From: Nitrospirales bacterium
GTDB taxonomy: Bacteria; Nitrospirota; Nitrospiria; Nitrospirales; NS-4
Direction of reading: 5' to 3'
Assembly: GCA_036505795.1 (NCBI GenBank)
Contig: DASXSU010000031.1
Coordinates: forward strand, 3,256-67,255
Length of the DNA stretch: 64,000 bases
Both the position numbers and the translations under genes were made by a program. The notes beneath the pieces are model-generated. The model had not been told where the DNA came from and searched no databases. It saw only the letters and a list, made by a program, of their open reading frames with translations. Below are positions 1 to 30,003 of the stretch, in pieces (positions within the stretch are counted from its first letter, which is position 1; each line of letters begins with the position of its first letter).

Positions 1-116
1 CCGACGAGACTGTCGATGACGCGGACGCGGAAGCCATGCTCGACGAGGAGATCGACCATATGACTGCCGATGAAACCGGCGCCTCCGGTGACGACGGCCA
101 ATGGTCGCGCGGCCAT
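1..116 (-). CDS. NAD-dependent epimerase/dehydratase (SDR), N-terminal part only; gene runs off the left edge
   Basis: Hand translation from ATG at 116-114: [38 protein letters not shown] (GxxGxxG Rossmann motif). Its ATG overlaps the upstream TGA (ATGA). Confidence 0.7.
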
Positions 117-1111
117 CACGCGACCCGAATGCGCTTGAGCACTTTGACGTTGTGGTAGCGTTCGTCGGTCATGCTATCCGGCAGCTTTCCTGCTCGGAAG
201 GCCATGGACAGATCCCGAACGGCATCCTCGATTCCCCGCTTCGGCTTAAACCCGATCTTTCGGGCAATCTTGTCGGAGTTAATATGGTAGGAACGATTGT
301 CGTTCGTTGGTGTAATCTGGATCGGAATTTCGGGCTTTTCGGGGAACTGCTGCTGCACGACCTGCTTCACCATCTTTGCGATCTCCATGATAGTGTGGTT
401 TTGGTAGCCCGCGTTAAATGTTTCCCCGGCGATGTCGACGTCCGGCACTTCGAGCAGCATTTTGTAGAGATCGCACATATCCTGGATATGCAGATTGGGC
501 CGCTTCTGCCCGCCGCCGAAGACGGTAATCTTGTTGTTGTTGACGGCATGGTTCGTGAGGATGTTGACAGAAAGGTCCAACCGCTGGCGGGGACTATAGC
601 CACAGATGGTGGCCGGGCGGATGGCAACGCACACAAAAGTTTTCGACTGATGCTTGAAGAGAAGTGGCTCACACATGCCCTTGAACTTGTTATAGAGCGT
701 CAGTGGCACTAACGGATGCTCTTCGGTTACCTCAGGAGCATCAGATACGCCATAGACGGAACTTGACGAGGCATAAATGAAACGCTTCACGCCTTGCTCC
801 TTCGCGGCAATGACGAGCGGTTCAAAACAGTCGTAGTTGATCGTCTGACTGAGCTGTTCATCGAGCTCAAACCCGGCATCATTTGAGATGCAGGCTAAAT
901 GGATCACGGCATCCATTCCGCGACAGGTATCTCTGAGCTTCGGAGTGTCACGGATGTCGGCCTGAATGAGCGTGAGGCCCGGAGTCGGTTTTAGTTCGCA
1001 GCCGTAGTACATGGTGTCGTAAACGGTGACCTTGTAGCCGGCGTCGAGCAACTGCGGAACCAGCAGCGTACCCACATAACCAGAACCGCCGGTGATGAGA
1101 ACATTCTTCAT
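116..1111 (-). CDS. NAD-dependent epimerase/dehydratase family (extended SDR) sugar-nucleotide enzyme
   Basis: 331-aa ORF with an ITGGSGYVG Rossmann motif and a YNKFK (YxxxK) catalytic motif. Substrate not assignable from sequence. Confidence 0.8.
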
Positions 1112-1144
1112 GCCGTGGAGCTCCTTATAATGAGAGCGGACCTG

Positions 1145-1888
1145 TCAGATGGCGGCCGGCCGGCGTTGGTAGGGAATACTATACCCGGCCGTTGTCGCAT
1201 CCTTGTGGAACATCTCAACCGTCTCGAGTGAGTAATCGCTGTGATCCTTCCCGAGCAGATGCAGCTTGTTCAGGATGTCGTTCGTGGCGGTGATAATATG
1301 ACAGCCGATCTCATTCGCCTGGACGATGTTCAGCAGCTCTCGCGGGCTGGCCCACAACAGCTCAGCCTTCGGCCGGCTTTGCAATAGCTTCAACGCGTCC
1401 CTCATGATAGGCACCGGATCCATTCCAGTGTCGGCAATGCGACCGGCGAAAACCGAGACGATGGCAGGGGTGTCGCCTACGAGCTGCTCGGCAATATCAC
1501 GGACCTGTTCCAACGTCATCACGGCAGTGATATTGAGTTTCACCCCGGCCGAGGACAGCCTGCGAATCAGCGGACCGGAAAACCTTCGCTTGGTATTGCT
1601 CACCGGGATCTTCACATTGACATTGCTGCCCCAGGAGGCAATTTCCATCGCCTGGCACTCCATCTCCTCAAACTCATCCGCAAACACCTCAAAGGAGACC
1701 GGCCTGTCCGGCACAACGGCAAGCACCTCAAGAGCGAATGCCTTATAGTCGGCGATACCAGCCTTCCGCATTAGTGTAGGATTTGTGGTGAATCCCTTGA
1801 TCCAGGACTTTGCGTACATTGTTCGGATGCCACCAATATCCGCTCCATCGGCAAAAATCTTGATATTCATTCCTTCCAGCTGCCTCAT
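1145..1888 (-). CDS. transaldolase / fructose-6-phosphate aldolase family protein
   Basis: KIFADGADIGGI...IKGFTTNPTLM, VNVKIPVS (Schiff-base Lys region) and IVSVFAGRIADTG are collinear with the FSA/TalC family. Start may be M1 (ATGA overlap with gmhB) or M7. Confidence 0.8.
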   Translation of the reverse strand: MRQLEGMNIKIFADGADIGGIRTMYAKSWIKGFTTNPTLMRKAGIADYKAFALEVLAVVPDRPVSFEVFADEFEEMECQAMEIASWGSNVNVKIPVSNTKRRFSGPLIRRLSSAGVKLNITAVMTLEQVRDIAEQLVGDTPAIVSVFAGRIADTGMDPVPIMRDALKLLQSRPKAELLWASPRELLNIVQANEIGCHIITATNDILNKLHLLGKDHSDYSLETVEMFHKDATTAGYSIPYQRRPAAI

Positions 1889-2451
1889 TCTCCCTCCTCT
1901 GACACGATGGGTTTCGTCCTAGGCGACTCAGCATGCCGGAGAATGATTGTAGCGGCCTCCCCTAAATCAGCACAGGTTGCGTCGGGGGTTTCTCGCAATG
2001 GCTCGGCATAACCACGGTCGATAAAGATTGTGAAGCACCCGGCGGCTTTGCCGGCCCCTACGTCCCGCCAGCGATCCCCAACCATGTAACTGCTCGCCAA
2101 GTTGATCTTGTGTTCTTCCGCAGCGGCCAGCAGCATGCCGGGTTTCGGCTTGTAGCATGTGCACTGAGCGCTGTCGAGTTCCCAACACACCTTGATATCG
2201 TCAATCGGCAATTCCTCGAGAAGCCGAGCATGCATCGCCTCGACGACCTCCCGTGGCTGGGTTCCCCTTCCAACATCGGGCTGATTGGTAGCGACAATCA
2301 ATACAAACCCGGCTTCCTTCAACCGGAGAATGGCTTCGCTGACGCCCGGTAGAATTTCAAAGTCAGCCAAAGAGGCGGGTGGATAGGGCAGGCCATCCCG
2401 CACGACGCTGCGGTTAATAACCCCATCCCGATCAAGAAAAACGGCTCGCAT
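1885..2451 (-). CDS. gmhB: HAD-IIIA phosphatase, D-glycero-D-manno-heptose 1,7-bisphosphate phosphatase-like
   Basis: Motifs VFLDRDGVIN, ATNQPDVGRG, CTCYKPKPGML and MVGDRWRDV; adjacent to gmhA. Confidence 0.75.
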   Translation of the reverse strand: MRAVFLDRDGVINRSVVRDGLPYPPASLADFEILPGVSEAILRLKEAGFVLIVATNQPDVGRGTQPREVVEAMHARLLEELPIDDIKVCWELDSAQCTCYKPKPGMLLAAAEEHKINLASSYMVGDRWRDVGAGKAAGCFTIFIDRGYAEPLRETPDATCADLGEAATIILRHAESPRTKPIVSEEGE

Positions 2452-2457
2452 TCGGAC

Positions 2458-3081
2458 TCAGCACTGAGGCGCTTTGACTGTATTTTCCCACTTCGTCTCA
2501 GCTAGCTGCAGCTTCGGGTGCGAGACAAGGCAATGCCACGCGACAGCGTGAAAGGCTTCCGTGTGGGGCGTCACGCGCGCGGCGTTGACGGTAGGAATGA
2601 CCAAGACGGCATCACCCATTTGCTTTGTGTATCCGCCATCGCGACCGACGACGCCATAGATTCTCAATCCCCTGCGCTTGGCTTCATCGACCGCGCGGAC
2701 AAGGTTGACACTGATGTTCTTGGCAGCGTTTCCCCCGCCGACCGAAAAGACAAAGACGGCATCATTGTCATTTGCGCGACTAACCCCGAGCCAGGCGGCA
2801 AAAACCGTTTCCCACCCTTCATCATTGGTGCGTGCCGTCAGTTCCGCAACATTATCCACGGGTGTGTAGGCCTCGATGCCGCAGAGCTTCCGGAAGTCAT
2901 TGACGGCATGGCTACAATTCGCCGCGCTGCCGCCGACTCCCAAGAGAAATAGCCGTCCTCCTCTCGCGCGTAGATCCGCGAGCCCTTCCGCAATACGCTC
3001 AAGCATCTCGTAATCGATGCGCTCAATGATCTGACTGGCTTCAGCGAAATATTCCGACGCGTGAGATGCCTTCAAATCCAA
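2458..3081 (-). CDS. gmhA: SIS-domain sedoheptulose-7-phosphate (phosphoheptose) isomerase
   Basis: 207 aa with FLLGVGGSAANCSHAVNDF and VFVFSVGGGN SIS motifs, in gmhB context. Confidence 0.75.
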   Translation of the reverse strand: MDLKASHASEYFAEASQIIERIDYEMLERIAEGLADLRARGGRLFLLGVGGSAANCSHAVNDFRKLCGIEAYTPVDNVAELTARTNDEGWETVFAAWLGVSRANDNDAVFVFSVGGGNAAKNISVNLVRAVDEAKRRGLRIYGVVGRDGGYTKQMGDAVLVIPTVNAARVTPHTEAFHAVAWHCLVSHPKLQLAETKWENTVKAPQC

Positions 3082-3124
3082 TGGTTGCCTGTTAAAGGAT
3101 TAGACCCGTTGGAAGCCTGTCGAG

Positions 3125-3153
3125 GTTCTAACAGGGGCCTCTCGTGGAGTCAA
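3125..3153 (-). promoter_or_regulatory. candidate sigma70-type promoter upstream of gmhA
   Basis: Minus strand reads TTGACT (3153-3148), 17-nt spacer, TAGAAC (3130-3125), about 45 nt upstream of the gmhA ATG. Confidence 0.35.
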
Positions 3154-3163
3154 GAATTTCTCA

Positions 3164-3184
3164 CTGCAACGAGCCTCGTTGCAG
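3164..3184 (-). other. perfect inverted repeat (10+1+10) in the lhgO-like/gmhA gap
   Basis: ctgcaacgag-c-ctcgttgcag. No clean U-tract on either strand, so it may be an RNA hairpin or processing site rather than a canonical terminator. Confidence 0.3.
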
Positions 3185-3206
3185 ACTGAATCTTAGAAAA
3201 AAGCGC

Positions 3207-4421
3207 TTATCTTTCCAAGGTCATTGTCCCGACCACGTGCTCTGCGAACGGCAACGCGGACGTAAATGCCGGAGACACTGCATTCAAGACATGGGTTGAG
3301 CGGGGTCCAGGTTCTACCACAAAGTCATTCAATAGTTCGGCAGTGTGCGTATTGACAAGCTGTGCGCGAATGCCAGCAGACTTTCCTGCCACCAGATCGT
3401 CTGGTTGAAGCCCTCTCACTAGGCCGGCCGCTTCACGATAAAAACCTCGCTTCGGCATTTTGCCGATCTCTTTGAGCGCGAGGGACCGAAAGTGATCGCG
3501 ATTTTTTGACAACAGCCGAACCATATACTTGACCATGGTCACAGCATCGCTCGCATTGGCGCCCTTGAGCCCCGAATATTGTTCGCGCCCAAGAAGCGGT
3601 AATGCGGACGGCCCGACGATCACCTCATCGTTTGGCCGCCTCGTGAAATGAATTCCGAGGAACGGGTTACGGAGATCCGGGACCGGGTAGATATTCCCTC
3701 GAACCCGAATGCGCGACTGGGGTCTGAGTTGGTAAAATCTTCCCAAAAAAGGAAGGATGCGATACTGCCGGCCGACACCAAACTCATGAGCAACACGATC
3801 GGCAAACAACCCGGCGCAGTTCACCAGATGCCCATAGGCGATACTGCCTCGCGTGGTTCGTGCGAGTCCGAGTTTGTCGGAACGCTCCCAAGCGCAATCG
3901 AACGCGAACAGCACTCCTTCTTTTTGTGCGTCTTCGAGCAGAGCACCCATCACGGCTTGCGGCACAACGACCGCCGTATCCTTTATAAAGAGCGCCTTTT
4001 CAGTCGTCTGCGCAAACGGCTCGAGTTCCTGCAAGGTGTGCTCATCAATGATATTGGCCTCAATGCCGTTTGACTGGGCACGTCTGTGTAACTCCTCCAG
4101 CGCCGGCAAATCGTGACGGGTTTGGGCGACGATCACTTTACCGGATTCGTTAATCGGTAGGTTTTTTTCGCGACAGTATGCGCGCATCCGCTGGTTGCCC
4201 GAGACGCATAAGCGAGCTTTGAGCGAGCCGGCTTGATAGTAGACGCCGGCGTGCAAGACTCCGCTGTTCCGACCACTGGCGTGCAGACCCGCCGACGGCT
4301 CCTTGTCTATGACCAGCACCCTTCCACCGTATCGACGATGCAACTCCCGTGATATTGCAACACCGACCACGCCTGCCCCAACCACTAGAAAATCACAGCT
4401 ATCTAATCTACCGTCGGGCAC
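3207..4421 (-). CDS. FAD-dependent oxidoreductase, L-2-hydroxyglutarate oxidase/dehydrogenase (LhgO) family
   Basis: Collinear with my recollection of E. coli LhgO: VVGAGVVGVA dinucleotide fold, RNSGVLHAGVYYQAGSLKA, ILPFLGRFYQL, IYPVPDLRNPFLGIHFTR, GIRAQLV, NAVSPAFTSALP. GTG start. Confidence 0.75.
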   Translation of the reverse strand: MPDGRLDSCDFLVVGAGVVGVAISRELHRRYGGRVLVIDKEPSAGLHASGRNSGVLHAGVYYQAGSLKARLCVSGNQRMRAYCREKNLPINESGKVIVAQTRHDLPALEELHRRAQSNGIEANIIDEHTLQELEPFAQTTEKALFIKDTAVVVPQAVMGALLEDAQKEGVLFAFDCAWERSDKLGLARTTRGSIAYGHLVNCAGLFADRVAHEFGVGRQYRILPFLGRFYQLRPQSRIRVRGNIYPVPDLRNPFLGIHFTRRPNDEVIVGPSALPLLGREQYSGLKGANASDAVTMVKYMVRLLSKNRDHFRSLALKEIGKMPKRGFYREAAGLVRGLQPDDLVAGKSAGIRAQLVNTHTAELLNDFVVEPGPRSTHVLNAVSPAFTSALPFAEHVVGTMTLER

Positions 4422-4520
4422 CTAAATAAGCACCTCCCATTTTCGTTAATGCTAGTACAATGACACGCGGGCCAGTGATTCCGGGTCACCCATTCAGCAT
4501 TCGGCAAACAACCCCGCCTG

Positions 4521-5045
4521 TTACATCTGCGTGTTCGCGTAAACGGGCACCACGTCTCTGGCATCAATCTCGACGGCCGCGGCCTGCTGGATCAGATGCA
4601 CGGCGATCACGAGACGGTGCCGCTTGTCTTTGCGAACCAGGACTCCTTGCACGCCTTCCAAAGGCCCTCGAATCACCTCGACCGGCATGCCTTCTCGAAG
4701 ATAGGGATATGAGTCGTATTCCAGAGTACTCGTAATCAGGACCTTGATCGCTTGCATTTCCTGCTCCGGAATTGGTTCCGGTCCGCTTGCGTTACCAATG
4801 ATGTCGACGACACCCCCCACTTTCAGCACCGCCAATCTGTCCTGCCAGGAAAACCGGGCAAAGCAATATCCTGGAAACAAAGGCCATTCAATTTCCTTTT
4901 TTCGATCCTTCCACTGATTCAGCCGTTTGATGGTCGGAAGGAGTTGCTCAACCCCGAGCGCAACGAAGCGATCGCGAACCTGCTTTTCGTGCCGGGATCG
5001 AGTGCGTATGGCGTACCAGAGGGGAATTCCGTTCAATTCAGGCAC
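4521..5045 (-). CDS. specialised NusG-family transcription antiterminator (NGN + KOW; RfaH/UpxY/TaA-like paralog)
   Basis: NGN domain: WYAIRTRSRHEKQVRDRF...WPLFPGYCFARF. C-terminal KOW: GMPVEVIRGPLEGVQGVLV. 174 aa, GTG start with GAGGG RBS. Confidence 0.75.
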   Translation of the reverse strand: MPELNGIPLWYAIRTRSRHEKQVRDRFVALGVEQLLPTIKRLNQWKDRKKEIEWPLFPGYCFARFSWQDRLAVLKVGGVVDIIGNASGPEPIPEQEMQAIKVLITSTLEYDSYPYLREGMPVEVIRGPLEGVQGVLVRKDKRHRLVIAVHLIQQAAAVEIDARDVVPVYANTQM

Positions 5046-5136
5046 AGCTCCGCCCTCTCACTTACAGACCACGAAAAAATTTTTCCTCCCTGAGTCTCCG
5101 AATACGTATAAAGAGACAGCAGAGAAGAACTGCCGC

Positions 5137-5155
5137 GTGACCACTACCGGGTCAC
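5137..5155 (-). other. 6-bp inverted repeat with a CGGTAGT loop spanning the regulator stop codon
   Basis: Minus strand reads GTGACC-CGGTAGT-GGTCAC. The loop resembles the GGTAG core of the E. coli ops element (GGCGGTAGCGTG). It lies in the leader of the NusG-paralog gene. Confidence 0.25.
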
Positions 5156-5727
5156 AAGGCCATGATCTTCGCTTTCGGAACCCCTTCACGTAGAATCAGG
5201 GCGTGAATTTCTTCCCTTTCGACCAGGTCGGCAATCAGCAGCGCGTCGTACTCCCAGTTCGCCAAGTTTTTTAAGGTCCATACCGGATAGGACAGAAAGA
5301 CCTGGTGCTGCTTACCATCGACAAAACCGACCAGTGTCATATTCATCTCTCGTAACGAGAGATAGGCAAGCTCTGCCAATTCCCCTGTTCCATAGATAAC
5401 AACGCGCTTGCCCCCCGCTTTCGACAAATCTGCGAGCCGGTACTTCAAACGGTCCCGAACATCGCGGTAATAGGATAAGGAATATTCCATGTACAGATAG
5501 GTGAGACGGGACTTCTCCGCCACGCCTCGAGTGGTTAAGAGATATTTAATACGGTGATGGGGAATGGTGGTAATCTTGATGTAGCCCTTTCGAATAAGCC
5601 GCTTGACATAGAGATTCGTCAGACCCAAAGCCACGCCGAGGCTTTTCGCTAGTGAGCGCTGTGAAACAGTGCTGTCACGAGCAACTTCGTCAAGTAGCCG
5701 TAAATCCCGCTGATCCTGCAAGTGCAT
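5152..5727 (-). CDS. winged-helix (MarR / EPS-associated type) regulator with an extra C-terminal Rossmann-like domain
   Basis: N-terminal wHTH: LRLLDEVARDSTVSQRSLAKSLGVALGLTNLYVKRLIRKGYI. C-terminal half: KRVVIYGTGELAELAYL...LVGFVDG. Confidence 0.55.
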   Translation of the reverse strand: MHLQDQRDLRLLDEVARDSTVSQRSLAKSLGVALGLTNLYVKRLIRKGYIKITTIPHHRIKYLLTTRGVAEKSRLTYLYMEYSLSYYRDVRDRLKYRLADLSKAGGKRVVIYGTGELAELAYLSLREMNMTLVGFVDGKQHQVFLSYPVWTLKNLANWEYDALLIADLVEREEIHALILREGVPKAKIMAL

Positions 5728-5912
5728 GAAAACCCTTACGTCTTACGTTGAGTGTTCACGATTTGAACATATTTACAAATGCCGGATCAAGTAGAAAGTG
5801 GGGACCGATTATGGTTGGTGAATCCGCCTGCCGCAGCAAAACGCTTTCTGTTGATCCCCAGAATGATTTGTGCAATAAAGCCAACCGGGCAGTCGGGGTT
5901 TGTGACGGGAAC

Positions 5913-6380
5913 ATGATGAAGAACGCCGGCATCATTTTATGGCTTTTTTACGGCCTGACGGCTCTTGGAGTCGCGGGCTGTCAGCATCAGACTCCTGCGT
6001 CTGAGCAGCAATATCGTCAGGAAGTCCGTTTCCGTGGCGCCTGGGACTATGCCATTGGTCGTCTCTCCTACGATGAAGTCCTGGAGTCATGGGGCCCTCC
6101 AACTTCTCTGCTTAGTGGCTATTCCCCGCAGGGCGGAACATTGGATTCAGCGCCGATTCTTGCCAATTGGCACTGGAACCATTCGCTTCCCGACATCGCC
6201 CCGCATTTTCCCGACGGCAGCCTCAGGTTCGGCGAGCAGATGGAATTAGTATTTGATCGGGAAACCAAGCGACTCATAGACTGGAAATACTGGGCATGGG
6301 GACCCACCTCACTTTTGTATAGGCACGAAGACAGTCAGAAAGCTGTGCTACCGACCGGCGGGATTTCTATTACTCAATGA
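5913..6380 (+). CDS. hypothetical lipoprotein
   Basis: Internal ATG at 5913 gives MMKNAGIILWLFYGLTALGVAGC, a signal peptide with lipobox (VAGC). The upstream 55 codons of the tracked ORF look non-coding. Confidence 0.55.
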   Translation: MMKNAGIILWLFYGLTALGVAGCQHQTPASEQQYRQEVRFRGAWDYAIGRLSYDEVLESWGPPTSLLSGYSPQGGTLDSAPILANWHWNHSLPDIAPHFPDGSLRFGEQMELVFDRETKRLIDWKYWAWGPTSLLYRHEDSQKAVLPTGGISITQ

Positions 6381-24118: not shown

Positions 24119-25207
24119 TCATCCCTCCGACCCGCTCGCCAGAACAGCGCCTTTTTGCCACTGCTTTGTGCTGGCTTGATTCGAATCCCGCACCATCCGG
24201 AGTGCCTGATGGAATACTTGCTCTGAACTGATGGACGTCAAGCATTCTAGCGCGTTCGGATTTACGCAACGCCGGCTGAGACAGGGGCTACAGGGAATCC
24301 CGCTTCGCAGGATCACATGCCCCGCTCCGTAGGGCCCGGTTCTGCGTGGATCGGTCGGGCCAAAAAGGGCTATGACCGGAGTGCTCAGGGCTGCAGCTAG
24401 ATGCATCGGACCCGAATCGTTCGTAATCAGAAGGCATGACCGTCTCAACAACGCGATCAATTCTTTGATGTTGGTCTTTCCTACCAGATCAATGGGTGAT
24501 GTCGTCATGTGCCGGACGACTGCCCGGCCCGCATCGGTTTCTGCCGGCGCTCCACTCACGGCCACCCGAATCCCTTCCTTTTGAAGCTGATCCGCCACCT
24601 GCGCAAATGAGGCGGGTGACCATTGCTTGGTGGGCCATCGCGCTCCTGCATTGATGGCCACCAACGGGATGCCTGGCGAGACGCCCGCTGAATTCACTAA
24701 TTGCTGAAGCCGTTTGTCGGCAGCCGTATCCATCGCCAGTGGAAATTGCAGTTGCTCCGATTCCTGTGGCGGCGCGCCGAGGGCACGAGCAATTAGCAGA
24801 TAGCGATCCACGGCGTGGATCGTCGGATCAGGCACCCCGACTTTTTGCGTGTAGAACCAGGGACTCCCTTCGCGCCCGCTGGCGAAGCCGATCCGCGTCG
24901 GCGCATGAGAAAGCCACCCCAAGATGGCGCTGCGCAGAAGCCCCTGGAGATCGACCACAAGGTCGAACTGTCCCGCCCGGACCGCACGAACCGCCTCCGG
25001 CCACCCGGCTAAAGTTAAATCCACAGGCAGAACGCGATCGATCGAGGGATTCGCCTCCAGCACAGCCGCCCATTGTCGTTTCACAAGCCACGTCAGCGCC
25101 GCCGATGGGAATCTTCGCCGCAGAGCGGCGGCGGTGGGAAGCGCGTGCACGATATCTCCCAGCGAGCTGGGCTTCAAAAGCAGAATGTTGCGAAAATCAG
25201 CTTGCAT
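24119..25207 (-). CDS. glycosyltransferase family 9, LPS heptosyltransferase (WaaC-like)
   Basis: From ATG 25207: RNILLLKPSSLGDIVHALPTAAAL...LITNDSGPMHLAAALSTP. Confidence 0.75.
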   Translation of the reverse strand: MQADFRNILLLKPSSLGDIVHALPTAAALRRRFPSAALTWLVKRQWAAVLEANPSIDRVLPVDLTLAGWPEAVRAVRAGQFDLVVDLQGLLRSAILGWLSHAPTRIGFASGREGSPWFYTQKVGVPDPTIHAVDRYLLIARALGAPPQESEQLQFPLAMDTAADKRLQQLVNSAGVSPGIPLVAINAGARWPTKQWSPASFAQVADQLQKEGIRVAVSGAPAETDAGRAVVRHMTTSPIDLVGKTNIKELIALLRRSCLLITNDSGPMHLAAALSTPVIALFGPTDPRRTGPYGAGHVILRSGIPCSPCLSRRCVNPNALECLTSISSEQVFHQALRMVRDSNQASTKQWQKGAVLASGSEG

Positions 25208-26948
25208 GCCGGGTCCTTGAGAGGGACAGGCTCTCTTGAGAGTCGGCGGCGGCCGAATTTTGCAGCACCCAATCAACCGCTTCCGTCAAGTCCTTCGCAG
25301 TATAATCGGGCGACAAATCTTGCGCGACCATCAAGACCCGCTCCTCTTCGGGACGAAAGCCGCTCAGGACAAAAATGCCGAGCGCACCGACATTGCGCGC
25401 CAAGGCGATATCGAGAGCGCGATCCCCGATCACAAAGGAACGCGCGGCTGTCAACCCGAGTTCTTGGCGTGCCTGCGCGACCAACCCTGAGGCCGGCTTT
25501 CGACAACCGCAGCCTTCATCCGGACGATGAAGGCACGCGTAAATTCCGTCCAGCCACGCGCCCGACTCGGCGAGCAAATCTTGGAGCCTTTGGTGGATTG
25601 CTCCAAGCGCCTCGATCGTGATGATGCCTCTCCCAACCCCGGATTGGTTTGTGACTAAAACAGTTTTGAGCCCCGCTTGGTTCAAGCGTGCGACGGCGCC
25701 GCCGACTCCAGGGAGCAGCCGCATCGCCACAGGATCGTTCAAATAACCCGGGTCCCAGTTCAACGTACCGTCGCGATCCAGAAATACAACGGGGGCACTA
25801 TGGCTGCTCATGCCGGCTTCCGCTTCGTGGGGCGATGGAGTATCCTTGCTGATGGAGAGCGAGCTTAACGCCAACGGTGAAACGCCCGCCTCCTGCAGTT
25901 GCCGCACAGCCGCCGAGTATACCTGTTCGGTCTGTATACCGCGCATGCACCGATGATCAATCGGACACTCCCGTAGCAAGCAGGGCGAACAGTCCACCGG
26001 GTGGCGGACCAATTCATGGCCGCTGCCGAACGGTGCGGTCGTGCGGGGATCCGTCGGCCCAAAGACCGCCACGACACGGACACCGAGCGCGGCGGCAATA
26101 TGCATCGGCCCGGCGTCGTTAGTGAGGAACAGCCGGCACTGCTTTACCAGCGCCATCAATTGCCGCACCGTTGTATGACCCGACAGGACGGTGTGAGGAG
26201 AGGTGAGCATTGCGGCGATGGCGCGGCCCAGTGCTTCTTCACCACGACCGCCGAAGATGAGCACATGAGCCTGGTATTCGGCGGCAAGACGCTCCGCGAG
26301 CTCGGCATATCGCTCCGGCAGCCACCGCTTTGCGGTTCCATAGGTGGATCCCGGATTCACACCAATAATCGGTTGTTCCGATAATACGCCAAAAGACTGG
26401 ATGCGTGCCGCCGCCTCGCGGTCCTCTGGAGCAGTCGTATAGAGAACGGGTGCTTCCGGCGTTATGGGAAAGCCCAGTGGCCGCAGCAATTCGAGATAGT
26501 ATTCGACTTGATGGGCCTGGAAAAGCGCGGAGGACCGCGCCACGCGATGAGTGAGAAGGAATCCTCGCCCATCCGTCGGATAGCCATAACGGTAAGGAAT
26601 ACCGGCCGCGGCCGCGAGGAGTGCCGCCTCAAACGCATTCTGAAACAGGACCGCCACATCAAACCGGCGGGACCTGAGCAACCGGGCCAATCGCCATTTC
26701 CCGCCTATTCCAGCATGCGTGCCCGGATTCCTGTACAGGATGATCTCGTCAATGGCCGGATGATTCTGAAACAGTTCTGCGACGGCGGGTTTGGCCAATA
26801 AGACGAGATGCGCGTCCGGAAAACCCCGCCGCAGCGCTTTGAGCGCGGGAGCCATCATGACTCCATCGCCCAGCCAATTCGTTCCCCGGATCAACAGTCG
26901 TTTCACCGCCCCGGGACGAATCAATTCTGTAAAACGAGTCGCTCCCAT
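25197..26948 (-). CDS. fusion protein: GT9 heptosyltransferase II-like (WaaF) plus C-terminal GmhB-type HAD phosphatase
   Basis: Single ORF. N-terminal part: RLLIRGTNWLGDGVMMAPALKAL...LTNDAGPMHIAAALG. C-terminal part: VVFLDRDGTLN...VTNQSGVGRG...CGCRKP...VIGDRALDI. Start is ATG 26948 or 26993. Confidence 0.8.
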   Translation of the reverse strand: MGATRFTELIRPGAVKRLLIRGTNWLGDGVMMAPALKALRRGFPDAHLVLLAKPAVAELFQNHPAIDEIILYRNPGTHAGIGGKWRLARLLRSRRFDVAVLFQNAFEAALLAAAAGIPYRYGYPTDGRGFLLTHRVARSSALFQAHQVEYYLELLRPLGFPITPEAPVLYTTAPEDREAAARIQSFGVLSEQPIIGVNPGSTYGTAKRWLPERYAELAERLAAEYQAHVLIFGGRGEEALGRAIAAMLTSPHTVLSGHTTVRQLMALVKQCRLFLTNDAGPMHIAAALGVRVVAVFGPTDPRTTAPFGSGHELVRHPVDCSPCLLRECPIDHRCMRGIQTEQVYSAAVRQLQEAGVSPLALSSLSISKDTPSPHEAEAGMSSHSAPVVFLDRDGTLNWDPGYLNDPVAMRLLPGVGGAVARLNQAGLKTVLVTNQSGVGRGIITIEALGAIHQRLQDLLAESGAWLDGIYACLHRPDEGCGCRKPASGLVAQARQELGLTAARSFVIGDRALDIALARNVGALGIFVLSGFRPEEERVLMVAQDLSPDYTAKDLTEAVDWVLQNSAAADSQESLSLSRTRHAS

Positions 26949-28030
26949 TCCTTCCAACCCTCGAGCCAGTTTACATCGATCCGGAGGACCCACATCCCGC
27001 TCAGGGGGACAGAATCACGCAACAATTGCAGCTTCACCGCATCCTTCTCGGTCGTGACCACATGATCTGCCCGCAGACTCCCGGCGACCTTTTCGACCCT
27101 TCGAATATCTTGAATGGAATACCGGTGATGGTCCGGGTAGATGCAATGATCAATGACGGTGGCGCCGAGACTCTCCAGCAGGCGGCGAAACGAGTCTGGA
27201 TTACCGATCCCGCTTAAGGCGACCACCCGCTCGCCCTTCAATGCGTCCGGCGGCTTGCTCTCGGAAGCAGCGCCGATTTTCTGCAGGGATGTTGGGATGA
27301 AGTCTGTGACACAGAGAGGCATTGACGGCGCCACATGACGAATCGCTTTCAGAACGTCAGCCAAATCTTCAGCCTGGCCGGCTCGGGTGACGAAGATGAG
27401 CGAGGCCCGCTTGAGCGCGGACAGTCGCTCCCGGAGTCGCCCTCGCGGAAGCAAGTCGCTGTTCCCAAAGGGGGCTGTCGCGTCGAGCAGCACGATATCG
27501 ATGTCCCGTTTCAATGCAAGATGCTGAAAACCATCATCGAGTACGAGCGTATCGACTTTAAAGCGATCCAGCAAATACCGGCCCGCCGCATAGCGGTCCG
27601 CCCCCACGACAACGGGGACGCCGGGGCAGCGCTCGGCGATCAGTAACGGCTCATCTCCGGTGTTCTCGGGGTCGCCTTGGATTGACCGGCCGTCTGAGAC
27701 TTCGAGGATATCCGATGTTGCCCGTCGCCCATAACCGCGGCTGACAACGCCGACCCTGCGGCCATTGCCGCGTAAGGCATTCGCCAAGGCGATCACGACC
27801 GGAGTCTTACCGGTTCCGCCCGCCGAAAGATTTCCGATACTGATGACCTTCACCGGCAGCGCGCGCTGCGCGATCAGGCCCGCTGCGTACAAGCGTTCCC
27901 TGGCGAGCATGCCGAGCCCGTACAGATGCGACAAGGGGACTAGGGGGGCGAGAGCCCATCTCACCGGCGATGACATTCCTGCATTGTCTCTCGTGATTCG
28001 TGAGTATTGATCGTATAGGATGCTTCCCAT
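26921..28030 (-). CDS. lpxK: tetraacyldisaccharide 4'-kinase
   Basis: ISIGNLSAGGTGKTPVV P-loop, VVSRGYGR and LDDGFQH motifs. Confidence 0.85.
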   Translation of the reverse strand: MGSILYDQYSRITRDNAGMSSPVRWALAPLVPLSHLYGLGMLARERLYAAGLIAQRALPVKVISIGNLSAGGTGKTPVVIALANALRGNGRRVGVVSRGYGRRATSDILEVSDGRSIQGDPENTGDEPLLIAERCPGVPVVVGADRYAAGRYLLDRFKVDTLVLDDGFQHLALKRDIDIVLLDATAPFGNSDLLPRGRLRERLSALKRASLIFVTRAGQAEDLADVLKAIRHVAPSMPLCVTDFIPTSLQKIGAASESKPPDALKGERVVALSGIGNPDSFRRLLESLGATVIDHCIYPDHHRYSIQDIRRVEKVAGSLRADHVVTTEKDAVKLQLLRDSVPLSGMWVLRIDVNWLEGWKEWERLVLQN

Positions 28031-28036
28031 GAATAG

Positions 28037-29317
28037 TTAACAATGACCCTTCGATTTCAACAGCTCGACTATGAGCTCCGCATTCTTCCCCACCGTTCCT
28101 TGGTTCGCTCGCACGATCTCCTCGGCCGCACGGCCCATCTTTTGAAGCCGGGCCCGATCTTTCAGCAGCCCACCTAATGCCACGGACATTTCCTCACCGT
28201 CTTGAACCTGGAGGGCACCTCCTTGCGACACCAACAACTCCGCAACCTCGGCAAAGTGATCCATATGGGGGCCGAAGACCAGGGCTTTGCCGCACGAAGC
28301 GGGCTCCAAAGGACTATGGCCGCCGATCGGCACGAGGCTGCCTCCCACAAACACCAGTGCCGCCTGTCGATACACCCCTGCCAACTCTCCGAATGTATCC
28401 AGGAGAATAATGCGAGGACCTCGCAGCACTTCCCGATGCTGATCGAGCGCTGTTCGCCTGAATACGGCAAATCCTCGTGCGCGAGCGATCGCCTCCAATG
28501 CCTCCACGCGCTCCAGATGGCGGGGAGCTAAAACAAGCACCAGGCCCGGTGCAACATCAAGCAGTCGGCGATAGCAGTCCAGCACGGCCTCCTCTTCAAT
28601 GGGATGGGTGCTGCCGGCAACAAATAATTCCTCATGTGCCTGCAGTCCAAGCTCGATCGGCTTCGCCGAGAGCCGATACGGAATTTGATCGAACTTGAGA
28701 TTCCCCGTGCGGACCACGCGGCTAGGATCGGCTCCGAGGGCCACGATGCGCTGCACGTCGCGGTCAGTTTGCATAAGCGATAGCGAAAACAAGCTGACGA
28801 TTCGCGAAAAAAATGGCCGGAGCCGCAGGTAGCCCTTGAAGGAATCGGTAGAAATCCTACCGTTCACCAGCACGCACAAAATCCCGCGATGTGCTGCAGC
28901 CTTCAGAAAGTTAGGCCACAACTCCGTCTCGACGATCAGGATAAGCCGCGGGCGGATCACTCCCAGTACCTTTCGGACGACCAATGGGAAATCCAGCGGA
29001 AAGTAGATGTGTTGCGCGAGTCCTTCGAGCCGGCGCGTCACCGTGTCTTTTCCGGTCTCAGTCACGGTGGAGACAACCACGCGCTGACGCGGATCACGCC
29101 TCTTGAGTTCTTGAACAAGCGGGACCACCGCATTGACTTCACCCATGGACACTGCGTGTATCCATATCGTGTGGCCATCCGCACAGTCCTCGGCCAAATG
29201 TTCCGGCAGCCATCCGAGGCGTTGCGCAAGCCCTCGACGGCAGCGCTTCTTTGCCAGAAGAATCCCGAGGATGACCGGCGAAGCCAGCGCCAAGGCGATA
29301 TTGTAGATGCCAAACAT
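28037..29317 (-). CDS. waaA: 3-deoxy-D-manno-octulosonic acid (Kdo) transferase
   Basis: From ATG 29317 (GGGAG 4 nt upstream): MFGIYNIALALASPVILGILL...IWIHAVSMGEVNAVVPLVQEL. About 427 aa, as in E. coli WaaA. The same frame is open upstream into the DUF374 C-terminus. Confidence 0.85.
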   Translation of the reverse strand: MFGIYNIALALASPVILGILLAKKRCRRGLAQRLGWLPEHLAEDCADGHTIWIHAVSMGEVNAVVPLVQELKRRDPRQRVVVSTVTETGKDTVTRRLEGLAQHIYFPLDFPLVVRKVLGVIRPRLILIVETELWPNFLKAAAHRGILCVLVNGRISTDSFKGYLRLRPFFSRIVSLFSLSLMQTDRDVQRIVALGADPSRVVRTGNLKFDQIPYRLSAKPIELGLQAHEELFVAGSTHPIEEEAVLDCYRRLLDVAPGLVLVLAPRHLERVEALEAIARARGFAVFRRTALDQHREVLRGPRIILLDTFGELAGVYRQAALVFVGGSLVPIGGHSPLEPASCGKALVFGPHMDHFAEVAELLVSQGGALQVQDGEEMSVALGGLLKDRARLQKMGRAAEEIVRANQGTVGKNAELIVELLKSKGHC

Positions 29318-30003
29318 GAGGCTCCCGAGGAGATCCCATGTCTTTCGCGGCCCTTCAACCCCTAGGAGCTGGTCCGCCTCGTCGCCCAGTTGGTTCAGCG
29401 CGATTTCCAATTCCACCCGCTTCGCCTCGATCTGCTCTTTGTCGGCGTCCTTCGAAACCCATATCGGCCTGCCCCAGAGGAAACATGCGCGACTGAATGG
29501 CATCGGCACCTCAAATCGATCCCAGCTCCCAAAGAGTTTTTTTTTGAGGCGGCAAAGGTGATGGGGAGGATCGGCAACCCTGTGAGCTTCGCCAGTTCGA
29601 TGACCCCACCCTGTGCGTGGCGCCGAGGGCCTCGGGGGCCATCGGGAGTCACGACCAGATCCGTTCCTGCTCGTCCGGCCCGTACCAACTCTCTGAGAGC
29701 CCGGCTTCCTCCACGCGTTGTTGAGCCACGCACCGTTCCAAAGCCGAACCAGCGCAATATCCGCGCGATCAATTCTCCATCGCGATGCGCGCTGATCAGG
29801 ATCTTCACGCCCGGCCCTCGGTACGACAACGGGATCATCAGTTGGCGACCGTGCCAGAACGCCATGATGATGTTTTTGCCCTCGTGCCATCGCGTGTCGA
29901 CTCTTTCCGGATGTATCGTCCGTAGACGCAGGGTCGCGCCGAGTCCGCGAATGACGACATACCCCAATGCCGGCAGAAGCCATAATTTAAGGCGGGGCCA
30001 CAT
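29318..30003 (-). CDS. DUF374 (lysophospholipid acyltransferase-like) protein, interrupted by a frameshift at an A9 tract and in frame with waaA downstream
   Basis: Frame A (29546-30003): MWPRLKLWLLPALGYVVIRG...TPDGPRGPRRHAQGGVIELAKLTGLPILPITFAASKK. Frame B (29318-29545): KLFGSWDRFEVPMPFSRACFLWGRPIWVSKDADKEQIEAKRVELE. No stop before the waaA ATG. Confidence 0.65.
29537..29545 (-). repeat. A9 (T9 on plus strand) homopolymer, the frameshift point of the DUF374 gene
   Basis: Plus strand reads gagTTTTTTTTTgagg. On the coding strand, TCA AAA AAA AAC contains the slippery heptamer A AAA AAA. Confidence 0.9.

What the first reader, a model, noticed from the sequence alone, without database searches (positions are those of the whole stretch)
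1..5727. NusG-paralog-led heptose operon containing an L-2-hydroxyglutarate oxidase-family flavoenzyme
Seen: the co-directional genes are MarR/EPS-type wHTH regulator, specialised NusG (NGN+KOW), LhgO-family FAD oxidoreductase, gmhA, gmhB, transaldolase-family gene and two SDR epimerase/dehydratases (the last runs off the window). Established: GmhA and GmhB make heptose phosphates from sedoheptulose-7-P, a transaldolase product. NusG paralogs such as RfaH, UpxY and TaA drive long polysaccharide operons. As I recall, the Campylobacter GDP-heptose C4-dehydrogenase Cj1427 reoxidises its bound NADH with 2-oxoglutarate, releasing L-2-hydroxyglutarate. Inference: the LhgO-like enzyme could recycle L-2-HG to 2-oxoglutarate for an SDR that oxidises an NDP-heptose. 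That would be a self-contained module for a modified (4-keto or 6-deoxy) heptose. I am not aware of a described LhgO partner in glycan clusters. No heptose kinase or nucleotidyltransferase is visible, so these may lie left of the window.
Basis: partly seen in the sequence, partly recalled or inferred. Interest (0 to 1): 0.65.

Follow-up and report, generated by a model that had tools for sequence, protein, structure and literature searches.

The report
LhgO flavoenzyme inside a sugar-nucleotide operon
A gene for an enzyme that normally clears the waste metabolite L-2-hydroxyglutarate sits at the head of a cell-surface sugar operon in a Nitrospira-like bacterium, and it lies beside the same kind of sugar dehydrogenase in four other bacterial lineages, so it probably recycles that dehydrogenase's by-product.

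Summary
In order they are a wHTH regulator, a UpxY-type NusG paralog, LhgO, a GmhA-like SIS isomerase, a GmhB-like HAD phosphatase, a transaldolase, SDR1 and the start of SDR2. The "gmhA" and "gmhB" score below the curated thresholds for those names.

Syntenic relatives show what lies left of the window. The operon continues with an HldE-like nucleotidyltransferase/kinase, a Gfo/Idh/MocA enzyme, an NDP-sugar dehydrogenase, a reductase, a methyltransferase, a split transketolase and a DegT aminotransferase.

The core idea gained support:
- The LhgO keeps all six residues that bind 2-oxoglutarate/L-2-HG.
- SDR1's closest solved structure is Cj1427, but SDR1 belongs to a sister clade (29% identity).
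- LhgO lies on the same strand within about 5 kb of a Cj1427-family SDR in four further lineages, including plasmid pDMC1 of the cultured Solidesulfovibrio magneticus RS-1.

Three caveats remain:
- 18 of 20 copies of the sugar cassette elsewhere lack LhgO.
- Nitrospira keeps LhgO at this position whatever cassette follows.
- Nothing has been tested biochemically, and the sugar could be larger than a heptose.

Verdict: partly supported. This is a new, cis-encoded L-enantiomer variant of the known coupling between D2HGDH and WbpB.

The parts
5152..5727 (-). Winged-helix regulator, 191 aa, with a MarR/EPS-like N-terminal half
   Evidence: HTH_24 gives 42.6 bits. TIGR04176 MarR_EPS gives 58.9 bits, below its cutoff of 88. 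The gene is conserved upstream of the NusG paralog in L006, L008/L065 and L070.
5046..5151 (-). Intergenic leader between the regulator and the NusG paralog. It holds a weak hairpin (5136-5116) and a conserved 34-nt block (5079-5046) that ends at the GTG start codon.
   Evidence: The terminator-like hit is within the number expected from shuffles. The block TTTTTTCGTGGTCTGTAAGTGAGAGGGCGGAGCT is nearly invariant across four loci. No Rfam family matches and no ops element is present.
4521..5045 (-). UpxY-type specialised NusG paralog, 174 aa
   Evidence: NF033644 gives 124.4 bits against a cutoff of 100. PF02357 (NGN domain) gives 67 bits. The gene lies directly upstream of LhgO in L004 (no gap), L006, L065, L009 and L073.
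3207..4421 (-). LhgO-family FAD-dependent L-2-hydroxyglutarate oxidase/dehydrogenase, 404 aa
   Evidence: NF008726 gives 334.8 bits against a cutoff of 299. Drosophila L2HGDH (8W75) matches at E 3e-52. Residues S53, H57, Y245, L255, H258 and R352 equal the 2-OG-binding residues of dmL2HGDH and are invariant or nearly so (R352 in 185 of 186, the others in all 186) across homologues (PMC10726252).
3082..3206 (-). Gap of 125 bp between LhgO and the SIS gene.
   Evidence: Sequence read directly. The scan found no promoter or terminator here. The equivalent gap is about 8 bp in L004 and 9 bp in L030.
2458..3081 (-). GmhA-like SIS_2 sugar-phosphate isomerase, 207 aa
   Evidence: SIS_2 gives 37.5 bits. 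The gmhA equivalog gives 50.3 bits against 209. Thirteen of the 14 PDB hits, including the top 13, are phosphoheptose isomerases. The positions of the metal ligands are retained as H/D/E/H.
1885..2451 (-). GmhB-like HAD-IIIA phosphatase, 188 aa
   Evidence: NF006506 gives 116.4 bits against 178. TIGR01656 gives 116.2 bits against 84.15.
1145..1888 (-). Transaldolase, 247 aa. Its start overlaps the stop codon of the HAD gene.
   Evidence: TIGR02134 gives 354.4 bits against 281.95. PDB transaldolases match at E 4e-17.
116..1111 (-). SDR1, 331 aa: an extended SDR in the sister clade of the Cj1427 GDP-heptose C4 dehydrogenase
   Evidence: The best PDB hit is 6VO6/6VO8 at 115.6 bits; the next best is 83.4 bits. 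Identity to Cj1427 is 29% over 314 aa. It shares the motif SPRxRxDLxVN with the Cj1427 clade and groups beside it in an NJ tree. 6VO6 is C. jejuni Cj1427.
1..116 (-). N-terminus of SDR2, a GalE-like NDP-sugar 4-epimerase-type SDR that runs off the window
   Evidence: The reading [19 protein letters not shown]... comes directly from the sequence. The full-length orthologue in L004 best matches UDP-hexose 4-epimerases such as 4ZRM and 6DNT.

Best explanation
Window 1-5727 is the 5' part of a long sugar-nucleotide operon. The operon is headed by a NusG (UpxY-type) paralog and sits at the variable end of the LPS supercluster of a Nitrospira-like bacterium.

Proposed mechanism:
1. The transaldolase supplies a ketose phosphate, most likely sedoheptulose-7-P.
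2. The GmhA-like isomerase, the GmhB-like phosphatase and an HldE-like kinase/nucleotidyltransferase (just left of the window) turn it into an NDP-heptose.
3. SDR1, a relative of Cj1427, oxidises the sugar at C4. It uses 2-oxoglutarate to re-oxidise its bound NADH and releases L-2-hydroxyglutarate.
4. The LhgO flavoenzyme oxidises L-2-HG back to 2-oxoglutarate and passes the electrons to quinone or O2. This removes an inhibitory dead-end product and pulls the sugar oxidation forward.
5. Downstream enzymes then elaborate the keto-sugar. These are an epimerase, a Gfo/Idh/MocA enzyme with an NDP-sugar dehydrogenase, a reductase, a methyltransferase, a split transketolase and an aminotransferase.

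Shown: gene identities, gene order, the intact LhgO pocket, SDR1's relatedness to Cj1427, and the recurrent clustering of LhgO with Cj1427-family SDRs. Inferred: every catalytic step, the use of 2-oxoglutarate by SDR1, and co-transcription.
For: - LhgO passes the curated equivalog threshold. It keeps all six 2-OG/L-2-HG contact residues, invariant or nearly so (R352 in 185 of 186) across homologues (residues from PMC10726252).
- SDR1's best solved relative is Cj1427, by a margin of 32 bits. SDR1 shares a clade-specific motif with it. Cj1427 makes L-2-HG from 2-oxoglutarate (PMC10680097).
- LhgO and a Cj1427-family SDR lie on the same strand in four further settings:
  - L030: Cj1427 orthologue (59% identity)-TK-TK-rSAM-LhgO-GmhA-GHMP kinase-NTP transferase-DegT, with 9-bp gaps on either side of LhgO.
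  - L059, a gammaproteobacterium: NTP transferase-LhgO-SDR-RmlC-like epimerase-reductase, with overlapping genes.
  - L152, Bacillota: NusG paralog...LhgO-GHMP kinase-Cj1427 orthologue (66%).
  - S. magneticus RS-1 plasmid pDMC1: Cj1427 orthologue (65%)...lhgO-SIS in one co-directional string.
- Tight spacing in relatives points to co-transcription. L004 has no gap between the NusG paralog and LhgO and about 8 bp between LhgO and SIS.
- There is a precedent. In P. aeruginosa, D2HGDH recycles the D-2-HG made by WbpB and is needed for full O-antigen production (PMC8651671).
Against: - The sugar cassette is widespread without LhgO. Only 2 of 20 metagenomic copies with enough upstream sequence carry it, and in L070 it is reduced to an 84-aa remnant.
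- Four of seven Cj1427 orthologues whose surroundings I examined have no LhgO within 10-15 kb. From memory, the C. jejuni capsule locus has none either.
- In Nitrospiraceae, LhgO keeps this position when the downstream genes are glycosyltransferases, RmlA/B/D-like genes or WbpB-like genes. Its position here could therefore be inherited synteny.
- SDR1 is only 29% identical to Cj1427 and lies in a sister clade. Its cofactor behaviour is unknown.
- No transcript or enzyme data exist.
Confidence: 0.55

Rival explanations
1. The LhgO is a housekeeping metabolite-repair enzyme that clears L-2-HG made by malate dehydrogenase side activity. It sits at the conserved edge of the Nitrospira LPS locus only through inherited synteny and has no specific link to the sugar pathway.
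For: - LhgO orthologues (62-84% identity) occupy the same junction in all Nitrospiraceae examined, whatever follows them.
- The scan found only one LhgO locus per genome.
- 18 of 20 sugar cassettes outside this lineage lack it.
- Most LhgO loci outside Nitrospiraceae show no glycan genes nearby.
Against: - It does not explain why LhgO is tightly packed or overlapping with Cj1427-family SDRs and heptose-activation genes in four unrelated lineages, including a 58.7-kb plasmid.
- It does not explain why LhgO is the first gene after the antiterminator, with no gap at all in L004.
Confidence: 0.25
2. LhgO does recycle 2-hydroxyglutarate for the glycan pathway, but the enzyme producing it is not SDR1. 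It would be a Gfo/Idh/MocA dehydrogenase of the WbpB/WlbA type, or another enzyme in the locus.
For: - The cassette contains a Gfo/Idh/MocA enzyme.
- In Nitrospira NFB02, LhgO is followed directly by a fusion of a Gfo/Idh/MocA domain with a WlbB-like acetyltransferase, then a DegT.
- Orthologues of that pair sit beside LhgO in a Nitrospinota MAG (L056) and a Margulisbacteria MAG (L044).
- WbpB re-oxidises its bound NADH with 2-oxoglutarate (PMC8651671).
Against: - WbpB makes the D enantiomer (PMC8651671), which an L-specific enzyme would not use.
- The cassette's own Gfo/Idh/MocA protein has only generic PDB and NCBIfam matches.
- L059, L152 and pDMC1 show no recognised Gfo/Idh/MocA gene near LhgO.
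Confidence: 0.1
3. The LhgO-like flavoenzyme acts directly on a pathway intermediate, such as a sugar or another 2-hydroxy acid, in the way the FAD-dependent heptose 4'-oxidase SepI does in septacidin biosynthesis.
For: FAD enzymes can make 4-keto-heptoses (SepI; PMC9978623). The related GlpO enzymes in this superfamily oxidise a phosphorylated polyol.
Against: - SepI belongs to the unrelated GMC family.
- The window protein passes the LhgO equivalog cutoff.
- It retains every residue that binds the C1 and C5 carboxylates of 2-OG, including the Arg that recognises C5 (PMC10726252).
Confidence: 0.05

Closest known systems
[quoted passage not shown]
   Same: It is an extended SDR and the closest solved structure to SDR1. 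Both share the motif SPRxRxDLxVN. Both occur in a heptose-type activation context. Cj1427 produces L-2-HG from 2-oxoglutarate (PMC10680097).
   Different: SDR1 is 29% identical and in a sister clade. Here the sugar is activated by an HldE-like PfkB/cytidylyltransferase fusion, not by the GHMP kinase and NTP transferase used with Cj1427. From memory, no LhgO is known in the C. jejuni capsule locus. SDR1's dependence on 2-oxoglutarate is untested.
Coupling of D2HGDH with WbpB (and with SerA) in Pseudomonas aeruginosa
   Same: A 2-hydroxyglutarate dehydrogenase regenerates 2-oxoglutarate for a sugar-nucleotide dehydrogenase that holds NADH tightly, and this sustains O-antigen synthesis (PMC8651671).
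   Different: That system uses the D enantiomer, an unrelated flavoenzyme family and an unlinked gene. Here the enzyme is L-specific by its pocket and is encoded inside the glycan operon.
LhgO/YgaF and L2HGDH in glutarate/lysine catabolism and metabolite repair
   Same: Same family above the curated threshold, with an identical substrate pocket (PMC10726252).
   Different: The genomic context differs. Here the gene is in LPS or other polysaccharide operons, not, from memory, in the csiD/gabDT-type catabolic operons.
UpxY, RfaH and LoaP, the specialised NusG paralogs that head polysaccharide operons
   Same: Membership of the UpxY family is above the cutoff, and the gene lies at the 5' end of a long co-directional glycan gene string.
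   Different: A wHTH regulator precedes it. No ops or JUMPstart element was found. A different conserved 34-nt leader is present instead.
Lincosamide C8-sugar pathway (LmbR, N, P, K, O, M, L, Z, S)
   Same: The same set of enzyme roles is present: transaldolase, isomerase, phosphatase, kinase, nucleotidyltransferase, epimerase, dehydrogenase, oxidoreductase and aminotransferase (PMC4351081 Table 2, compared).
   Different: No sequence comparison was possible. The kinase and nucleotidyltransferase here are HldE-like and fused. The cassette also has a split transketolase and a methyltransferase. The product is unknown.

Membership tests
LhgO / L2HGDH (NF008726) | Full-length match above the curated equivalog cutoff | tested here: met
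   334.8 bits against a cutoff of 299, covering residues 9-397.
LhgO / L2HGDH (NF008726) | The residues that contact 2-OG/L-2-HG (dmL2HGDH S88, H92, Y289, L299, H302, R393) | tested here: met
   S53, H57, Y245, L255, H258 and R352 are present. The first five are invariant in all 186 homologues and R352 in 185 of 186 (PMC10726252).
LhgO / L2HGDH (NF008726) | FAD-dependent oxidation of L-2-hydroxyglutarate | not testable with these tools
   This needs an enzyme assay.
Cj1427-type ping-pong NDP-heptose C4 dehydrogenase | Closest relative among solved structures, and a shared clade motif | tested here: met
   6VO6 gives 115.6 bits and the next hit 83.4 bits. The motif SPRxRxDLxVN is present in both clades and absent from 12 other SDRs.
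Cj1427-type ping-pong NDP-heptose C4 dehydrogenase | Orthology, meaning placement in the same clade as Cj1427 | tested here: not met
   Identity is 29%. SDR1 falls in a sister clade in the NJ tree, whereas true orthologues are 55-69% identical to Cj1427.
Cj1427-type ping-pong NDP-heptose C4 dehydrogenase | Tightly bound NADH that is re-oxidised by 2-oxoglutarate to give L-2-HG | not testable with these tools
   This needs the purified protein.
UpxY-type NusG paralog | Family model above its cutoff, with an NGN domain | tested here: met
   NF033644 gives 124.4 bits against 100. PF02357 gives 67 bits.
UpxY-type NusG paralog | A cis recruitment element and antitermination of its own operon | tested here: inconclusive
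   No ops or Rfam element was found. A conserved 34-nt leader was found, but its function is unknown.
Canonical ADP-heptose pathway (GmhA, GmhB, HldE) | Equivalog-level matches for the isomerase, the phosphatase and the kinase/adenylyltransferase | tested here: not met
   GmhA gives 50.3 bits against 209, and GmhB 116.4 against 178. The HldE-like protein in relatives gives 130 bits against 521, with its two domains in reversed order. All are clear homologues; 13 of the 14 PDB hits for the SIS protein are GmhA.
Lincosamide-type octose pathway | The same complement of enzyme families, starting with a dedicated transaldolase | tested here: inconclusive
   The families match at the level of enzyme roles (PMC4351081). 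No Lmb sequences were available for direct comparison.

The most novel reading that the evidence does not exclude
LhgO is a dedicated, operon-encoded regeneration partner for a widespread family of sugar-nucleotide dehydrogenases that use 2-oxoglutarate as their hydride sink (the Cj1427/SDR1 clade, and perhaps some WbpB-like enzymes). Together they would form an L-2-HG/2-oxoglutarate shuttle that links sugar C4 oxidation to the respiratory chain. In Nitrospira this would feed an uncharacterised higher-carbon, aminated and methylated sugar in the LPS.
Probability: 0.45. Interest if true: 0.7.

Novelty: new variant of a known kind. Interest (0 to 1): 0.6.

Why it matters
Cj1427-type enzymes release one L-2-hydroxyglutarate for every sugar they oxidise, and the fate of that product has not been described. 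L-2-HG inhibits enzymes that depend on 2-oxoglutarate.

A LhgO encoded in cis would explain how cells make this chemistry sustainable. It would give LhgO a biosynthetic role beyond catabolism and repair. It would also mirror the coupling of D2HGDH with WbpB that supports O-antigen synthesis in Pseudomonas.

The idea can be tested directly. The gene pair occurs on a small plasmid of a cultured bacterium, Solidesulfovibrio magneticus RS-1, and both enzymes should be easy to assay.

The analysis also flags a widespread and highly conserved sugar cassette of at least 13 genes whose product is unknown. That cassette is part of the surface glycan of nitrite-oxidising Nitrospira.

Tried and rejected
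- **Extending the contig.** An exact-sequence look-up of the window's LhgO found nothing. P0001 gave the JGI contig, which adds only about 240 bp to the left. P0121 is 100% identical on a 151-kb NCBI contig, but that contig is not on record. I therefore relied on syntenic relatives.
- **LhgO as an integral part of the cassette.** Rejected: only 2 of 20 cassettes carry it.
- **The flavoenzyme as a direct sugar oxidase like SepI.** Rejected on family membership and pocket residues (PMC9978623).
- **An internal promoter at 3153-3125.** It did not pass the scan, and the gap is only about 8 bp in L004. The question stays open.
- **ops/JUMPstart or other known leader RNAs.** None found.
- **The cassette's Gfo/Idh/MocA enzyme as a WbpB/WlbA orthologue.** It has only generic matches.
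- **Plasmid and ICE hits for SDR1.** The A. oryzae and P. aeruginosa hits carry only generic annotation and no LhgO.
- **Papers not held.** The primary Cj1427 papers and the lincosamide papers could not be read. Their details are cited second-hand or from memory.
- **Literature search.** No held paper links 2-hydroxyglutarate dehydrogenases of the L type to heptose or glycan clusters.

Full report
**1.

The genes are on the minus strand of window 1-5727, in this order:

| Gene | Coordinates | Size |
|---|---|---|
| wHTH regulator | 5727-5152 | 191 aa |
| NusG paralog | 5045-4521 | 174 aa |
| LhgO-family flavoenzyme | 4421-3207 | 404 aa |
| SIS_2 protein | 3081-2458 | 207 aa |
| HAD-IIIA phosphatase | 2451-1885 | 188 aa |
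| Transaldolase | 1888-1145 | 247 aa |
| SDR1 | 1111-116 | 331 aa |
| SDR2 (N-terminus only) | 116-1 | runs off the window |

The ATG of SDR2 overlaps the SDR1 stop codon.

Curated models give three firm names:
- UpxY-family antiterminator: 124.4 bits against a cutoff of 100.
- L-2-hydroxyglutarate oxidase: 334.8 bits against 299.
- Transaldolase TIGR02134: 354.4 bits against 282.

The gmhA model gives 50.3 bits against 209, and the GmhB model 116.4 against 178. However, 13 of the 14 solved structures matching the SIS protein, including the top 13, are GmhA, and the positions of the metal ligands are kept. The regulator scores below the MarR_EPS cutoff (58.9 bits against 88).

The window comes from a Nitrospirales genome. 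The LhgO and SDR1 have identical or near-identical copies in Nitrospirales and JGI contigs, and the next relatives are Nitrospira at 62-84% identity.

**2. The surroundings**

Most of the right-hand part of the window, to about 39 kb, is one co-directional outer-membrane and LPS supercluster. It contains:
- BamA, Skp, FabZ, LpxA and LpxI
- a Gfo/Idh/MocA gene
- LpxB, MsbA, KdtA and LpxK
- a GT9-HAD fusion and a second GT9
- many glycosyltransferases, SDRs, a DegT and a B12-radical SAM enzyme

Ca. Nitrospira bockiana has the same order, with its LhgO orthologue directly after the core glycosyltransferases.

**3. What lies left of the window**

The source contig could not be extended. Syntenic relatives show the continuation instead. 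The relatives are L004 (LhgO 84% identical), L069, L070 and L073. After SDR2 they carry:
- a fused cytidylyltransferase-like and PfkB kinase protein, whose domains are HldE-like but reversed in order and sub-threshold (130 bits against 521)
- a Gfo/Idh/MocA oxidoreductase
- a nucleotide-sugar dehydrogenase
- an RmlD-like SDR
- a methyltransferase
- an optional further SDR
- a split transketolase
- a DegT aminotransferase
- a hexapeptide acyltransferase

The "self-contained module" is really a cassette of 13 or more genes.

The cassette is widespread and strongly conserved. A metagenome scan gave 464 matches, with SDR1 67-92% identical. PGAP gives its members only generic names in a cultured Azospirillum.

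**4. The flavoenzyme is a genuine LhgO by every sequence test available**

Its closest solved relative is Drosophila L2HGDH (E 3e-52). That structure defines six residues that hold 2-oxoglutarate: S88, H92, Y289, L299, H302 and R393 (PMC10726252). The window protein has all six, at S53, H57, Y245, L255, H258 and R352. Five are invariant in all 186 homologues I aligned and R352 is present in 185 of 186, including the distant ones discussed below. This argues against a new substrate such as a sugar. The FAD-dependent heptose 4'-oxidase SepI does exist (PMC9978623), but it belongs to the unrelated GMC family.

**5. SDR1 is a relative of Cj1427 but not its orthologue**

- Its best PDB hit is 6VO6/6VO8 at 115.6 bits over the full length; the next hit scores 83.4 bits.
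- The 6VO6 sequence is 96% identical to the 313-aa C. jejuni protein cluster, so it is Cj1427.
- The other SDRs of the locus score only 16-69 bits against Cj1427, against 125 bits for SDR1.
- In an NJ tree the SDR1 clade is sister to the Cj1427 clade and stands apart from 12 other extended SDRs.
- Both clades carry the motif SPRxRxDLxVN, which none of the 12 outgroup SDRs has.
- Identity is only 29%, whereas true orthologues are 55-69% identical to Cj1427.

Cj1427 holds NADH tightly and is re-oxidised by 2-oxoglutarate, giving L-2-HG (PMC10680097).

**6. Is LhgO linked to the sugar chemistry? Evidence against a tight link**

- Of 20 metagenomic copies of the cassette with at least 1.5 kb upstream, only two carry LhgO. 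Both are Nitrospira-like. In L070 only an 84-aa remnant is left.
- In Nitrospiraceae, LhgO stays at the junction between the LPS core and the variable region, whatever follows it:
  - glycosyltransferases
  - a fusion of a Gfo/Idh/MocA domain and a WlbB-like acetyltransferase, plus DegT
  - RmlA/B/D-like genes
- Most LhgO loci outside the family show no glycan genes nearby.

**7. Evidence for a link**

LhgO is found packed against Cj1427-family SDRs in four further lineages, with different gene orders:

| Locus | Lineage | Arrangement (same strand) |
|---|---|---|
| L030 | Another Nitrospirota MAG | Cj1427 orthologue (59%)-split transketolase-B12 rSAM-LhgO-GmhA-GHMP kinase-NTP transferase-DegT; 9-bp gaps beside LhgO. 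This is a Campylobacter-type GDP-heptose set. |
| L059 | Gammaproteobacterial MAG | NTP transferase-LhgO-SDR-RmlC-like 3,5-epimerase-reductase-C-methyltransferase, with overlapping genes. The SDR's only strong PDB hit is Cj1427 (E 7e-25). |
| L152 | Bacillota MAG | NusG paralog...LhgO-GHMP kinase-Cj1427 orthologue (66%) |
| pDMC1 (58.7 kb) | Solidesulfovibrio magneticus RS-1 | Cj1427 orthologue (65%) and annotated lhgO-SIS in one co-directional glycan string |

The other four Cj1427 orthologues I examined lack LhgO within 10-15 kb. So three of seven orthologue loci have it.

For two single-copy genes, the chance of lying within about 5 kb on one strand is well under 1% per genome. That figure is my own rough estimate, and two of the positive loci were found from the LhgO side, which biases the sample. 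The recurrence across phyla is still hard to put down to accident.

Spacing supports co-transcription. In L004 there is no gap between the NusG paralog and LhgO and about 8 bp between LhgO and SIS. In the window the gaps are 99 and 125 bp, with no predicted terminator and no scan-passing promoter.

**8. Best reading**

- LhgO most likely recycles the L-2-HG released by a sugar-nucleotide dehydrogenase that depends on 2-oxoglutarate.
- In this operon that dehydrogenase is probably SDR1.
- The effect would be to regenerate 2-oxoglutarate and pass the electrons to the respiratory chain.
- This is the L-enantiomer counterpart, encoded in cis, of an established coupling. In P. aeruginosa, WbpB makes D-2-HG, and D2HGDH is needed for full O-antigen production (PMC8651671).
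- The aminotransferase in the cassette would return 2-oxoglutarate from glutamate. Without LhgO, L-2-HG would then be the net waste product.
- I put this at about 0.55. The main rival is a housekeeping LhgO kept here by synteny, at 0.25.
- A variant has a Gfo/Idh/MocA enzyme as the source of the 2-HG (0.1). It is supported by LhgO sitting beside orthologous Gfo/Idh/MocA-acetyltransferase and DegT pairs in Nitrospira, Nitrospinota and Margulisbacteria. It is weakened by WbpB's D-stereochemistry.

**9. Heptose or something larger?**

The GmhA-like, GmhB-like and HldE-like proteins, and the parallel with true GDP-heptose loci (L030, L152, pDMC1), favour a heptose.

Two points leave room for doubt. 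All four activation enzymes are sub-threshold. A dedicated transaldolase is also unnecessary for ordinary heptose synthesis.

The set of enzyme roles in the cassette matches the lincosamide C8 pathway role for role: transaldolase LmbR, isomerase LmbN, kinase LmbP, phosphatase LmbK, nucleotidyltransferase LmbO, epimerase LmbM, dehydrogenase LmbL, oxidoreductase LmbZ and aminotransferase LmbS (PMC4351081 Table 2). I could not compare sequences, so an octose-type product stays open at roughly 0.2-0.25. That question is independent of what LhgO does.

**10. Novelty**

Searches of the held literature found nothing that links LhgO or L-2-HG oxidation to heptose or glycan loci. The library is incomplete, so this is not proof of absence.

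I rate the finding a new variant of a known kind, with interest 0.6. It is a specific and cheaply testable answer to what happens to Cj1427's by-product. It also points to a conserved sugar cassette of unknown product in Nitrospira LPS.

Noticed in passing
window 5046-5079 (minus strand), just 5' of the NusG-paralog GTG start: A 34-nt block, TTTTTTCGTGGTCTGTAAGTGAGAGGGCGGAGCT, is nearly invariant across four loci whose NusG paralogs are only 77-80% identical. Its 3' end together with the start codon, GGCGGAGCTGTG, loosely resembles the RfaH ops element (8 of 12 positions). It could be a ribosome-binding or leader element, or a recruitment site.
   Followed up: partly
L030 5443-8443; L154 10001-12726; L158 11995-15518; L157 13416-18603; L151 11980-15053: Cj1427-family SDRs are repeatedly clustered with a split transketolase or E1-like pair, and usually a DegT aminotransferase, across phyla. 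In L030, L151 and L154 the pair immediately follows the SDR; in pDMC1 (L157) it lies upstream. This suggests the 4-keto sugar receives a ThDP-dependent two-carbon transfer before amination.
   Followed up: partly
L069 8046-20996; L070 8048-20999; about 460 metagenome matches: The cassette SIS-HAD-TAL-SDR1-SDR2-nucleotidyltransferase/kinase-GFO-UGDH-like-SDR-methyltransferase-TK-TK-DegT is widespread and very conserved (SDR1 67-92% identical). Its members have only generic annotation. Its set of enzyme roles parallels the lincosamide octose pathway.
   Followed up: partly
L066-L068 11272-13862; L056 6410-9285; L034 5147-9633: LhgO also sits directly beside RmlA/RmlB/RmlD-like genes in Nitrospira, a Nitrospinota MAG and a Thermodesulfobacterium MAG. 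No 2-oxoglutarate-dependent enzyme is evident there, so the recycling model does not explain these cases.
   Followed up: no
L070 7676-7930: In one soil contig the LhgO is reduced to an 84-aa DAO fragment while the NusG paralog and the whole sugar cassette remain intact. The cassette can evidently persist without a LhgO in cis.
   Followed up: no
window 25197-26993 (minus strand): A 598-aa fusion of a GT9 heptosyltransferase with a GmhB-like HAD phosphatase domain. Ca. N. bockiana (L002) has the same fusion.
   Followed up: no
window 28037-29983 (minus strand): The Kdo transferase ORF is 648 aa, with about 250 N-terminal residues that match nothing. In N. bockiana a separate DUF374 gene precedes KdtA, so this may be a gene fusion or an over-extended ORF.
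   Followed up: no
window 5748-6380 (plus strand): A 210-aa ORF on the opposite strand, with no Pfam or NCBIfam match, fills the 680-bp space upstream of the regulator. It may be a real divergent gene or part of a long leader region.
   Followed up: no
L004 11206-12363 and 13173-14169: In the closest long relative, the SIS and HAD genes read as one 385-aa fused ORF, and SDR1 is split by an apparent frameshift. This could be an assembly error or decay.
   Followed up: no
L155 (P. aeruginosa p2014S05-249-1, 582544-583590): A member of the SDR1 clade (45.6% identical) lies in a small cluster carried on an ICE. The cluster has a class III aminotransferase, a GNAT acetyltransferase, a cytidylyltransferase, a GH65 enzyme, an MFS transporter and a DegT. 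No LhgO is present.
   Followed up: no
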